From Thermodesulfobacteriota bacterium (GTDB taxonomy: Bacteria; Desulfobacterota; Desulfobulbia; Desulfobulbales; SURF-16): a DNA stretch of 17,655 nucleotides. A program made the position numbers and the translations under genes. The notes beneath the pieces are model-generated. The model was not told the DNA's origin and ran no database searches. It worked only from the letters and a program-made list of their open reading frames with translations. Location: the NCBI GenBank assembly GCA_039715015.1, contig JBDLIE010000054.1, forward strand, positions 1 through 17,655, written 5' to 3'. Within the stretch, counting starts at the first letter, position 1; each line of letters starts with the position of its first letter. Positions 2,989 to 17,655 of this stretch are shown one piece after another.

Positions 2989-3396
2989 ATGCCACGAATT
3001 CCTGCTACCTTGTTTCAGTTTTTTCTTTCCTTGGTTTTGCTCAATCTCTTGGTTGGGTGCGGCTGGTTTTATAATGGTTTTGACGATCAACAACAATCGG
3101 CTGCAGCAGGCGTCCCTCAAGAGCAGCAAGTCACGCCCTCCGTTGTTTTGTGCAAAACAGATGCCCGTGCGGTCTTGAAGAAATCTTGCGGGAAATGTCA
3201 TCAAAAGAGCATTTCAAAAGTCCCCAAGGCCCTTAATGTCTATGATCTGGAAGAGGACGTCTGGTATAGCCGCATGTCAAAATCTCAAGTGAAAGGCATC
3301 AAAAAACGGATTCGCAAAGCGGATAATATCTCCCAAGAAGAAGTAAATTTTGTCAATGCTTGCGTGGCCTGCCTTCTGTCGGACAATTGCCGCTGA
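2989..3396 (+). CDS. Putative lipoprotein, monoheme c-type cytochrome-like
   Basis: SD GGAGGAG, hydrophobic leader ending LLVGC (lipobox), single CGKCH heme-attachment motif. Confidence 0.65.
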   Translation: MPRIPATLFQFFLSLVLLNLLVGCGWFYNGFDDQQQSAAAGVPQEQQVTPSVVLCKTDARAVLKKSCGKCHQKSISKVPKALNVYDLEEDVWYSRMSKSQVKGIKKRIRKADNISQEEVNFVNACVACLLSDNCR

Positions 3397-15050: not shown

Positions 15051-15090
15051 AAAAAAAAGCCGAGCTACCTTAATCTCAAGGCAGCCCGGC
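15051..15090 (-). terminator. Riboswitch expression-platform intrinsic terminator
   Basis: - strand GCCGGGCTGCCTTG-AGAT-TAAGGTAGCTCGGC hairpin followed by T8; its 5' arm is the 3' end of the aptamer. Confidence 0.85.
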
Positions 15091-15152
15091 TGAGTATGAA
15101 ACTCCCGTGGCTTTCCGCCCCTGTCTCACAACAGGTTTGACTTTTTCTTCAG
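15078..15152 (-). ncRNA. c-di-GMP-I (GEMM-I) riboswitch
   Basis: - strand AAAAAGTCAAACCTGTT-GTGA-GACAGGGGCGGAAAGCCACGGGAGT...ACTCAGCCGGGCTGCC: P2 with AAA internal loop and GNRA tetraloop, GCGGAAAGCC junction and AGCCGGGCTGCC 3' motif typical of deltaproteobacterial GEMM-I RNAs; lies in the 5' UTR of the radical SAM gene. Confidence 0.9.
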
Positions 15153-15344: not shown

Positions 15345-15468
15345 TATTAACGCAAAGCTAAGACGCGCGCCTAGCCGAGGTTGAGTAAGTTCGGGTTGTA
15401 CTCAAGATTGCCGAAGCCGATATAGCGAAGCGCAAGTCTGCGCGTCGTGCTTGAGCGGATTGTTATGC
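15345..15468 (-). mobile_element. Integron attC site (last of the array)
   Basis: - strand GCATAAC-AATCC-GCTCAAGCACGACGCGC ... GCGCGTCTTAGC-TTTGC-GTTAATA: R'', L'' with extrahelical base, L', R'; 124 bp imperfect palindrome. Confidence 0.85.
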
Positions 15469-15790: not shown

Positions 15791-15969
15791 AACACTTTCC
15801 TTGTCAGAGTTAATTAAATTGACGATGCGACTCTCTGCTCAATTACACTTAGGCAGTGCATAAATTTATCTTGTTCCAGCATGAAATCAAGCAAAGAAAC
15901 AGCTTTGTGTAACTTTTGGGTCTTTGTCATGTTTGCAGAATGTAAGATGTTTGGTGAACATCTAAAAAA

Positions 15970-16008
15970 CGCACGTTCTCGCGGGTCTGGTTGAACGAAT
16001 TGTTCGGT
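15970..16008 (-). mobile_element. Truncated or degenerate attC (R''-L'' half only)
   Basis: - strand ACCGAAC-AATTC-GTTCAACCAGACCCGCG, about 30 nt after the DJ-1 stop; no clear L'/R' partner. Confidence 0.65.
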
Positions 16009-16039
16009 TTGTCTCATGCAGGGCTTGAATATATGCCCC

Positions 16040-16675
16040 TTATTTATTTGTTTCAAGTAGGTCGTTTTTCATTAGCTCCCATTGTTTTTCATACTCCATT
16101 ATGTATGCTACTTTGTCTACAAAATCAATATCATACCCAAACCGCTTTAGAAGGTGAAAACTAACCTCTATTCCAGATGTGATACCGCCACCTGTTACAA
16201 TACGACCAGTATCAACAACTCTATGGCGATCAATTATACATTTAGGTGCAAGCTGGGCAAGCCTGTCAATTGGTACTAATGGTTCATTTGGGTCGCCATT
16301 TTTTCTGTTTGTTGCTTTGATACCATCTAGTAACCCTGCAACACCATAAACCCATGACCCTGTACAAACACTAACAAGCATGGTCTCTTTTGGAACTGAT
16401 TTAACAAAGTTTAGTAAACGACTATTGTGTATTTCTGGGCGTGTGCCAATACCGCCAGGAATAAGAAAAGCATCCATACTTGGATTATCACTTAACCCAT
16501 ATTTGGGGACAACTCGTAAACCTGCTGTGGCTACAACAGGTGCTATCGTGTCACCAATAAGAAATGTTTCTAATTCTGGGTCCATTCTTTTTGCTACTGC
16601 AAATACGCCTGTTGGACCAGCCCAATCAATTACTTCTGCATTGTCAAAAATATAAATTCCTAATCTCTTTTTCAT
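16040..16675 (-). CDS. DJ-1/PfpI family protein (isonitrile hydratase InhA-like subfamily)
   Basis: EVIDWAGP, FLIPGGIGTR, nucleophile motif SVCTGS, AGLLDG, VVDTGRIVTGGGITSGIE; SD AAGGAG. Confidence 0.9.
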   Translation of the reverse strand: MKKRLGIYIFDNAEVIDWAGPTGVFAVAKRMDPELETFLIGDTIAPVVATAGLRVVPKYGLSDNPSMDAFLIPGGIGTRPEIHNSRLLNFVKSVPKETMLVSVCTGSWVYGVAGLLDGIKATNRKNGDPNEPLVPIDRLAQLAPKCIIDRHRVVDTGRIVTGGGITSGIEVSFHLLKRFGYDIDFVDKVAYIMEYEKQWELMKNDLLETNK

Positions 16676-16700
16676 TTTCTTGATTCTCCTTTGTTGTGTT

Positions 16701-16718
16701 TACAGACCAGTCTGTCTA
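16701..16718. promoter_or_regulatory. Putative TetR operator upstream of the DJ-1 gene
   Basis: ACAGAC-CA-GTCTGT palindrome, same motif as at 16770-16785 and 17392-17407. Confidence 0.7.
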
Positions 16719-16761
16719 GGGAGTGGTGAAAGATTACTTTGCTCTTTTGACACCACCTCAA

Positions 16762-16793
16762 ACGACAGAGACAGACAGGTCTGTCTCTGTCGT
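16762..16793. repeat. Perfect 15-bp inverted repeat containing the operator core
   Basis: ACGACAGAGACAGAC-AG-GTCTGTCTCTGTCGT, 11 nt downstream of the tetR stop. Confidence 0.85.
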
Positions 16794-16804
16794 GGTAAAA
16801 AAAA

Positions 16805-17374
16805 CTACTCAGTTAGTAATTTTCTGGCTACTTCTTGAGCAGACTCGATAGGCCAAATTGCGTTGTAGTTTTGACTAGCAACAATAGCTCCCTCAACTAA
16901 AACATAAACTGCTTTTGTTGTATTGGTTGCATTTTGTTTTGGGGATACAATATCCGAGATTATTGCATGTAGATATTTTTGAAGACTATCTTTGTGTTTT
17001 ATTACTTCGGAACGAATTTTTGAATCTGATAAGGGTATTTCTGAGGCAATATTTAAAAATGCACAACCTCGATAGTTACTATCTTGCATCCATTTCTTTA
17101 AAAATGAAAAGACAGCTGATAGTTTTTCTTTATCTGTTTTATTATTCTCGACATGATCTTTTAGCCAACCCATCCAAACACCATGACGGGCTTGGAGATA
17201 GGCAACACACAAGGCTTCTTTTGAATGGAAATTGGAATAAAAGGTTGCCTTTGCAACTTTAGATTCCGCAATAATTTGATTAATACCTGTCGCCAAGTAT
17301 CCTTGCTTATAAAAAAGATCAAGGGCTGTTTCGATTATACGGTCTCTGGCATTATTTTCATTTTTGATCGGCAT
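16805..17374 (-). CDS. TetR/AcrR family transcriptional regulator (NemR/YxaF-like)
   Basis: RDRIIETALDLFYKQGYLATGINQIIAESKVAKATFYSNFHSKEAL helix-turn-helix; YRGCAFLNIASE; LVEGAIV. Confidence 0.93.
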   Translation of the reverse strand: MPIKNENNARDRIIETALDLFYKQGYLATGINQIIAESKVAKATFYSNFHSKEALCVAYLQARHGVWMGWLKDHVENNKTDKEKLSAVFSFLKKWMQDSNYRGCAFLNIASEIPLSDSKIRSEVIKHKDSLQKYLHAIISDIVSPKQNATNTTKAVYVLVEGAIVASQNYNAIWPIESAQEVARKLLTE

Positions 17375-17380
17375 GACAAC

Positions 17381-17409
17381 AAAATAAGGTAGACAGACCT
17401 GTCTGTCAA
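17381..17409 (-). promoter_or_regulatory. sigma-70 promoter of tetR overlapped by operator
   Basis: TTGACA (17409-17404)-17 nt-TATTTT (17386-17381); operator GACAGAC-CT-GTCTGTC at 17392-17407; ATG follows the -10 hexamer after 6 nt. Confidence 0.7.
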
Positions 17410-17442
17410 TTGTTTTTTATATGTGGATGCTTGGTTTTGGAA

Positions 17443-17561
17443 ACCTAACGTCTTGATCACCAGCCAAAAGGTGAACTGTGAGTTAGCCTTTTAGCACCGT
17501 AAACACGTAATTTATTTACTTCTAAAACCGGCGTTCCTTTTGGTCTGGTGCATTAAATTGT
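17443..17561 (-). mobile_element. Integron attC site interrupted in R'' by a group II intron
   Basis: - strand [..A]AC-AATTT-AATGCACCAGACCAAAAGG ... CCTTTTGGCTGGTGAT-CAAGAC-GTTAGGT; R' fits GTTRRRY; R'' is cut at TTGT| on the + strand. Confidence 0.85.
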
Positions 17562-17655
17562 GTACGCCCGGCATGGGCGTGAACTAGTGGGGTTCAAGTC
17601 CCCTGTGGGTGTTCCTGTGTTAGGTGTGAAACTTAACATGAACCACTAGCCGAAG
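17562..17655 (+). mobile_element. 5' end of group IIC(-attC) intron (continues beyond window)
   Basis: GTACGCCCGGCATGGGCGTGAACTAGTGGGGTTCAAGTCCC resembles class IIC 5' ends (GTGYGCCCGGCATGGG...); starts right after TTGT on the attC bottom strand, antisense to the cassettes. Confidence 0.82.

What the first reader, a model, noticed from the sequence alone, without database searches (positions are those of the whole stretch)
17550..17655. Group IIC-attC intron inserted in an attC site, with atypical GUACG 5' end
Seen: the attC bottom strand is interrupted exactly after TTGT, where GTTRRRY should continue, by GTACGCCCGGCATGGGCG. Established: IIC-attC introns insert at TTGT/T after the attC stem-loop, antisense to the cassettes, and have been proposed to take part in cassette genesis. 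The 5' end GUACG departs from the GUGYG consensus. The insertion should disable recombination at this attC, fixing the upstream cassette.
Basis: partly seen in the sequence, partly recalled or inferred. Interest (0 to 1): 0.7.

Follow-up and report, generated by a model that had tools for sequence, protein, structure and literature searches.

The report
Ordinary attC-targeting group II intron end
The contig ends in the first 94 bases of a known kind of mobile intron that has inserted into an integron gene-cassette recombination site and likely disables it; its supposedly unusual start, GUACG, is the normal start for this intron lineage, so the finding is ordinary.

Summary
Observation confirmed. 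An attC bottom strand (17443-17561) breaks after TTGT (17558-17561), and 17562-17655 is the 5' end of a group IIC-attC intron. A second copy, identical over 91 nt, follows TTGT in a different attC on contig C66. The 'atypical GUACG' claim fails. All 7 named plasmid introns checked start GTACG, including copies whose promoter fingerprints match the published S.ma.I2 group, as do 64 of 80 related starts. The rest of the intron is missing from the assembly. In the probable source run a 305-nt contig extends it through domain I and ends in a 27-nt repeat insertion. A separate contig of similar depth links domain III to an RT motif, so an RT gene is likely but not shown. The 3' junction was not seen. 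The split R box should block recombination for the cassettes on both sides, not only the upstream one (inferred). Eighteen relatives are short, ORF-less forms; the scan noted such families before on other DNA. Verdict: new member of a known kind, low interest.

The parts
17562..17655 (+). 5' end (nt 1-94, start of domain I) of a group IIC-attC intron; cut by the contig end
   Evidence: 100% to C66:1-91; 83% over 93 nt to the full-length RT-coding intron in L030; helices shared with 43 relatives; extended to about nt 300 by a 305-nt contig of run X1 with 0 differences over the overlap
17558..17561 (+). IBS1, TTGT, the last four bases of the 5' exon; GT is the first part of the split R'' GTT
   Evidence: TTGT in 44 and TGGT in 14 of 69 starts (includes the two G000 copies)
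17443..17561 (-). attC site (T-N6-C type) whose R'' box is split by the intron; its bottom strand is the hairpin target
   Evidence: box geometry as described in PMC7923331 and PMC3053210 (passages)
17630..17635 (-). possible -10 box (TAAGTT) of an outward promoter (P1out position); the -35 box would straddle the contig end
   Evidence: geometry only; untested
16003..17449 (-). downstream cassette with a TetR regulator (17374-16805) and a DJ-1/PfpI protein (16675-16040); own promoter-like site and three operator-like palindromes
   Evidence: Pfam PF00440, PF01965; promoter scan; palindromes at 16701, 16770, 17392; a contig of run X3 matches 16003-17450, close to both cassette ends
15960..16008 (-). 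left half of a second attC; no matching right half found
   Evidence: 80.6% over 62 nt to the C66 attC; no end-to-end fold
15345..15468 (-). third attC-like site, complete; last of the array before chromosomal genes
   Evidence: read (R''-like GCATAAC, R' GTTAATA, long bottom-strand hairpin); my heuristic scan missed it

Best explanation
Bases 17562-17655 are the 5' end of a group IIC-attC intron that sits, in at least two copies in this genome, at the TTGT junction in the bottom strand of attC sites, where it likely arrived by reverse splicing and likely inactivates the site. How it works (established for the lineage, inferred here): the intron RNA with its RT/maturase recognises the folded attC bottom strand, pairs its EBS1 (ACAA) with TTGT and EBS3 with the next T, reverse-splices and is copied into DNA, antisense to the cassettes. 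The insertion splits the GTT of R'', so only 2 bp of the R box can form and the genome's IntI should no longer use this attC (inferred). The cassettes on either side could then move only together, through flanking sites. A at position 3 is the lineage norm and needs no compensation that I could find: the epsilon contact in IIC introns uses position 4 (here C) with a G in the Z-anchor. The full element is likely about 1.9 kb with an RT gene (my odds 0.65).
For: Junction and attC anatomy. Second copy after TTGT in another attC. Full-length relatives have D1-D4 Rfam matches, domain V/VI, a YADD RT (TIGR04416 398.9 and 414.3 bits, cut-off 300) and a 3' exon starting with T that restores GTT (19 of 19, 11 of 12). 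GTACG starts L119/L121, whose P1out (77-105) and P2out (322-350) match the S.ma.I2/E.c.I7 row of Table 3 in PMC3001079, and L026, L120 and L122, which match other rows. EBS1 tracks IBS1 in relatives: ACAA-type 28 TTGT and 5 TGGT; ACCA-type 4 TGGT and 1 TTGT (38 insertions, not independent). In run X1 the intron contig has depth 189.7 against 52.4 for the flank. A contig of depth 172.5 joins the domain III motif to the RT stretch around FSESS..SAH, and its loose ends resemble the RT-coding L106/L108 clade. IntI is present at C59:544-1485, 441 bits. Epsilon is U4-G107 in the O. iheyensis IIC intron (PMC3964913, passage).
Against: Only 94 nt are in the assembly. No RT, no matching domain V/VI and no 3' junction were found in G000. 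The depth-172.5 contig is not shown to be contiguous with the 305-nt one and may come from another organism. The closest 5' ends among relatives with both ends visible are ORF-less forms (L046, L047, L062). EBS1 and EBS3 of this copy could not be read. A 27-nt insertion in the I(i)/I(ii) loop may impair folding: L054, which has it plus one more insertion, loses both closing stems in the MFE fold. X1 is probably the source sample, so it is not independent support.
Confidence: 0.9

Rival explanations
1. Same lineage and site, but this copy is an ORF-less, roughly 700-nt non-autonomous intron moved in trans by an RT from an unassembled or foreign full-length intron.
For: 18 of 80 related starts are short elements (344-916 nt) with both ends, against 12 full-length with YADD (19 were flagged and I dropped L027, whose tail lacks domain V). 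The best-scoring complete relatives are of this form. L054, which shares the 27-nt insertion, is ORF-less. No RT in G000.
Against: The depth-172.5 contig with the same domain III type runs into RT coding sequence. No contig at a depth near 190 skips the ORF among the 15 joints shown of 18. A collapsed 1.9-kb repeat would be shorter than the smallest contig held (2236 nt), so the missing RT says little. The short-versus-full count is biased because many loci hold only about 1.6 kb after the start.
Confidence: 0.22
2. The copies are dead remnants: 3'-truncated, or crippled by the repeat insertion after they spread, and no longer mobile.
For: 23 of 80 relatives show neither a 3' end nor YADD in 1 kb or more. 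The three relatives with the same kind of insertion (L043, L054, L079) are truncated or ORF-less. S.ma.I2 is reported untranscribed in its host (PMC3001079, Discussion).
Against: The two assembled copies are identical over 91 nt, and the 305-nt contig that includes the insertion is a single unbranched piece at 3.6 times the flank depth. This fits spread after the insertion.
Confidence: 0.2
3. Assembly chimera: a repeated intron end from another genome was joined to this attC.
For: The join is at a contig end of a metagenome assembly, and many organisms in run X1 carry related intron ends.
Against: A 2146-nt contig of X1 spans the junction to 17585 with no differences (24 bases past the junction, below the tool's 31-letter bridging rule). 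The join falls exactly on the known target site in two different attC sites.
Confidence: 0.03

Closest known systems
Group IIC-attC introns: S.ma.I2 / E.c.I7 and the Klebsiella, Shewanella, Geobacter and Desulfurivibrio members listed in Table 3 of PMC3001079
   Same: Bottom-strand insertion after TTGT in R'', antisense to cassettes; GTACG start; same domain I scaffold; near the distal end of an array; P1out-like geometry.
   Different: Belongs to a different subclade: relatives' proteins are 48-53% identical to the two plasmid IEPs. It carries a 27-nt repeat insertion in domain I. Its own RT and 3' end are not assembled.
ORF-less IIC-attC derivatives (L046, L047, L059, L062 here; earlier scan notes e1-9874012, e1-9784798, e1-6822275)
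   Same: Closest 5' 94 nt; same junctions.
   Different: This copy more likely keeps its RT. PMC4424553 (passages) calls ORF-less bacterial introns rare.
Terminator-targeting IIC introns (O. iheyensis intron of the crystal structures; B.h.I1)
   Same: IIC ribozyme with a hairpin-dependent target and a U4/C4-G epsilon contact (PMC3964913, PMC4424553, passages).
   Different: They insert after intrinsic terminators, not in attC. Their GUGYG start is recalled, not checked by a call.

Membership tests
[quoted passage not shown]
   both G000 copies
Group IIC-attC intron | 3' junction: intron end AY followed by T-RRRY | tested here: inconclusive
   Not in the assembly; met in relatives (19 of 19; 11 of 12)
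Group IIC-attC intron | IIC-type domain I | tested here: met
   94 nt align with relatives that match RF02001/RF01998; the X1 contig matches L030 intron nt 1-271 with 39 differences and 4 gaps over 273 nt. The 94 nt alone give no Rfam hit.
Group IIC-attC intron | EBS1 (ACAA) and EBS3 complementary to the target | tested here: inconclusive
   Letters of this copy's EBS1 not readable; EBS1/IBS1 fit in 32 of 38 relatives; EBS3 not examined
Group IIC-attC intron | RT/maturase ORF (YADD, no endonuclease) in the IIC-attC clade | tested here: inconclusive
   Absent from the assembly; RT motif on an unlinked contig of similar depth; present in relatives; no tree was built
Group IIC-attC intron | Domains V and VI | tested here: inconclusive
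   Not assembled; the only RF00029 hit in G000 (C20:826-900) does not match the relative's intron
Group IIC-attC intron | Splicing and mobility into attC | not testable with these tools
   Two copies in different attC sites imply past mobility
attC site | R''-L''-L'-R' geometry, bottom-strand hairpin, two extrahelical bases | tested here: met
   T-N6-C, a type excised efficiently in PMC3053210 (passages); five bases of R'' lie beyond the intron
General group II 5' consensus | GUGYG start | tested here: not met
   GUACG here, as in 64 of 80 related starts; GUGCG in 8. Not a defining feature of IIC-attC.

The most novel reading that the evidence does not exclude
An active IIC-attC intron that carries a REP-like hairpin repeat in the I(i)/I(ii) loop of domain I, the loop that docks the Z-anchor, and has nevertheless spread to three or four attC sites. 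A genomic mini-repeat would be hitch-hiking on the ribozyme at a recurrent hotspot (seen in three relatives from two subclades), within a lineage that also keeps shedding ORF-less, trans-mobilised copies.
Probability: 0.3. Interest if true: 0.35.

Novelty: new member of a known kind. Interest (0 to 1): 0.14.

Why it matters
It matters little as a single case: attC-targeting IIC introns are described, including in Geobacter and Desulfurivibrio. Two points are useful. GUACG should be treated as the normal IIC-attC start, so scans should not flag it and GUGYG-based boundary callers will miss it. And these introns are common in this order (112 of 401 genomes searched), where they break assemblies inside cassette arrays and may weld neighbouring cassettes into blocks.

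Tried and rejected
Extending the contig inside G000: no contig continues the tail. No RT by Pfam or by a relative's protein; a full relative matches only the two 5' ends. The domain V/VI fragment on C20 was rejected as the missing end: no match, different terminus, no attC after it. Exact 41-nt and 31-nt patterns found nothing in genome contigs and metagenome contigs. No RNA holder listed. A compensatory epsilon' change for A3 was sought and not found: among 51 sequences (43 A3, 8 G3), nine other columns sort with G3 imperfectly and none as a Watson-Crick partner; the G3 forms look like one subclade. My attC heuristic missed the window's sites and C66's first site, so I give no genome-wide attC count. 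An empty allele of this attC was not seen among the X1 contigs shown, but contigs drop rare variants. Small-share runs X2, X3 and X7 carry relatives only and were not used for habitat. The two primary papers by Leon and Roy 2009 are not held. A search for GUACG with group II intron listed 11 papers, none on this lineage by title; a search for group II intron, attC and Desulfobacterota found 0. No supplements were read; they and the unavailable papers may already print the GUACG boundary. No protein tree was built.

Full report
1. Observation. The window is the whole contig C54 of genome G000. TTGT lies at 17558-17561 and GTACG starts at 17562, leaving 94 nt to the contig end. Upstream is an attC. 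On the minus strand the AC remnant of R'' is followed by a 5-nt spacer, L'' (17554-17547), a long arm, L' (17461-17455), a 5-nt spacer and R' GTTAGGT (17449-17443). The bottom strand folds at -18.1 kcal/mol (z -2.94; 4 of 200 shuffles as good), with T17544 and C17551 bulged six bases apart, the T-N6-C type that several integrases excise well (PMC3053210, passages). Contig C66 begins with the same ATTGT plus 91 identical bases after a different attC. Two independent sites with the same junction rule out chance and explain why both contigs stop here.

2. What it is. The 94 nt match 13 of 40 genomes of the family and 112 of 401 of the order, G000 included in both. Complete relatives are group IIC introns: Rfam D1-D4 and domain V/VI matches and RT/maturase ORFs above the TIGR04416 cut-off (2 of 2 tested). 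Their lengths are 1840-1970 nt (12 elements). The 3' exon begins with T and restores GTT in 19 of 19 and 11 of 12 (the two sets overlap). This is the published IIC-attC pattern, TTGT/T in R'' on the bottom strand (PMC7923331, passages; PMC3001079, two of six parts and the Discussion). In relatives the EBS1 loop tracks the target: ACAA-type 28 TTGT and 5 TGGT; ACCA-type 4 TGGT and 1 TTGT (38 insertions in which EBS1 was found; kin are not independent). The genome has an integron integrase on C59. On C54 the invaded site is followed by a TetR plus DJ-1/PfpI cassette, a half attC, a short ORF and a last complete attC, so this is the distal end of an array. An exact 27-nt match was found in a Desulfocapsaceae assembly, so the host is probably a related sulfur-cycle bacterium (inference).

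3. The GUACG claim. It departs from the textbook GUGYG (PMC4424553, passages) but not from this lineage. All 7 named plasmid introns I fetched start GTACG. Numbering from that G, L119 and L121 carry P1out at 77-105 and P2out at 322-350 exactly as Table 3 of PMC3001079 gives for S.ma.I2/E.c.I7; L026, L120 and L122 match three other rows. I identify them by these fingerprints, not by name. Of 80 distinct related starts, 64 are GTACG, 8 GTGCG and 8 other, mostly degenerate. Most were found by similarity to the query, but a pattern lacking the 5' end gave 20 loci, of which 19 start GTACG and one was not anchored. Structurally, epsilon in the O. iheyensis IIC intron is U4-G107 (PMC3964913, passage). 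Here position 4 is C and the AGG of the Z-anchor motif is constant in 51 of 51 relatives examined; no column compensates position 3.

4. Beyond the contig. No RT, matching domain V/VI or 3' junction is in G000. In run X1, probably the source sample and so not independent, a 305-nt contig starts at 17557, is identical over the overlap and has depth 189.7 against 52.4 for the flank. Depth is not a copy number, but it fits three or four copies. Laid on the full-length relative L030, the same contig matches intron nt 1-271 and ends in 29 loose bases that equal a 27-nt insertion plus two resumed bases seen in L054. Folding of four insertion-free relatives places this spot in the 3' strand of the loop between stems I(i) and I(ii), a region that contacts the Z-anchor in the O. 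iheyensis intron (PMC12660903, passages; the correspondence is my inference). A second contig, depth 172.5, matches the domain III motif and the RT stretch around FSESS..SAH; its loose ends resemble the RT-coding L106/L108 clade. It is not shown to join the first, and other organisms in the run carry related introns. I put an RT gene at about 0.65. Against it, the nearest complete relatives are ORF-less. In one search, 18 of 80 are short with both ends (19 flagged, L027 dropped), 12 are full-length, 2 have both ends but are otherwise altered, 23 have no 3' end or YADD in 1 kb or more, and 24 run off their DNA; short forms are favoured by the locus size.

5. Mechanism. Shown: position, orientation, two copies, lineage. 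Inferred from the lineage: reverse splicing into the folded bottom strand through EBS1/IBS1 and EBS3/IBS3, then reverse transcription. Inferred from geometry: with the intron in place R'' reads GT followed by intron bases, so the R box keeps 2 bp and should not recombine. Excising one cassette needs the attC on each side (established integron biology, own knowledge), so both neighbours lose single mobility but could move as a block; the downstream cassette is also bounded by a half site. A search for group IIC intron, integron, attC and cassette excision listed two papers; the passages I read report no test of an interrupted site. An outward promoter is possible at the P1out position, but the TetR cassette has its own promoter-like site. 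Nothing here tests the cassette-genesis proposal.

6. Comparison and verdict. It works like, and on every feature that could be read is, a group IIC-attC intron; the RT, domain V/VI, EBS and 3' junction tests are inconclusive for this copy, not failed. Geobacter and Desulfurivibrio members are already listed in PMC3001079. PMC8876359 was read in passages. The two Leon and Roy 2009 papers were not available and no supplements were read. Verdict: new member of a known kind; the feature that raised the first score is ordinary. Interest 0.14.

Noticed in passing
relatives L046, L047, L053, L054, L059, L062, L068-L070, L072, L075, L077, L079, L088, L112, L118, L025, L029: 18 short (344-916 nt) IIC-attC elements without an RT ORF, with both ends and mostly TTGT or TGGT / T junctions; L059 and L062 are 97% identical over 706 nt at different sites. 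Earlier scan notes describe such families.
   Followed up: partly
intron nt about 272-298 (beyond the window, run X1); L054, L043, L079; G000 C10, C11, C16, C17, C36: A 27-nt repeat with a short palindromic head sits in the 3' strand of the I(i)/I(ii) loop; 8 similar heads occur elsewhere in G000. REP-like by appearance only.
   Followed up: partly
L105:227-1378; L002, L043, L046, L054, L068, L069, L070, L072, L075: An IS110-family transposase is inserted in domain I of one relative; a 23-nt insert with a similar start recurs at several positions and in both orientations in others, possibly an IS footprint.
   Followed up: partly
window 15076-15150 (-): c-di-GMP-I-GGC riboswitch (60.7 bits) upstream of a B12-binding radical SAM/DUF4070 gene at 15017-13491.
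   Followed up: no
window 16701-16716, 16770-16785, 17392-17407: Three near-identical palindromes, one overlapping a TTGACA-17-TATTTT site ahead of tetR: likely TetR operators of a self-regulated two-gene cassette.
   Followed up: partly
window 15960-16008 (-): Left half of an attC only; with the intron-split site upstream, the TetR/DJ-1 cassette has no intact flanking attC on either side.
   Followed up: partly
G000 C59:544-1485; C66:92-212, about 1030-1120, about 3090-3180; C20 about 1650: Integron integrase, and further attC sites at or near other contig ends; C54 and C66 may be pieces of one array.
   Followed up: partly
G000 C20:826-900: Lone domain V/VI of a different group II intron (RF00029, 45.4 bits), with no RT found in the genome.
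   Followed up: partly
L107, L029, L031: L107 and L029 keep only 110-130 nt of the 5' end and 140-170 nt of the 3' end around an unrelated middle; L031 has a 609-nt intron followed at once by a second, truncated start.
   Followed up: no
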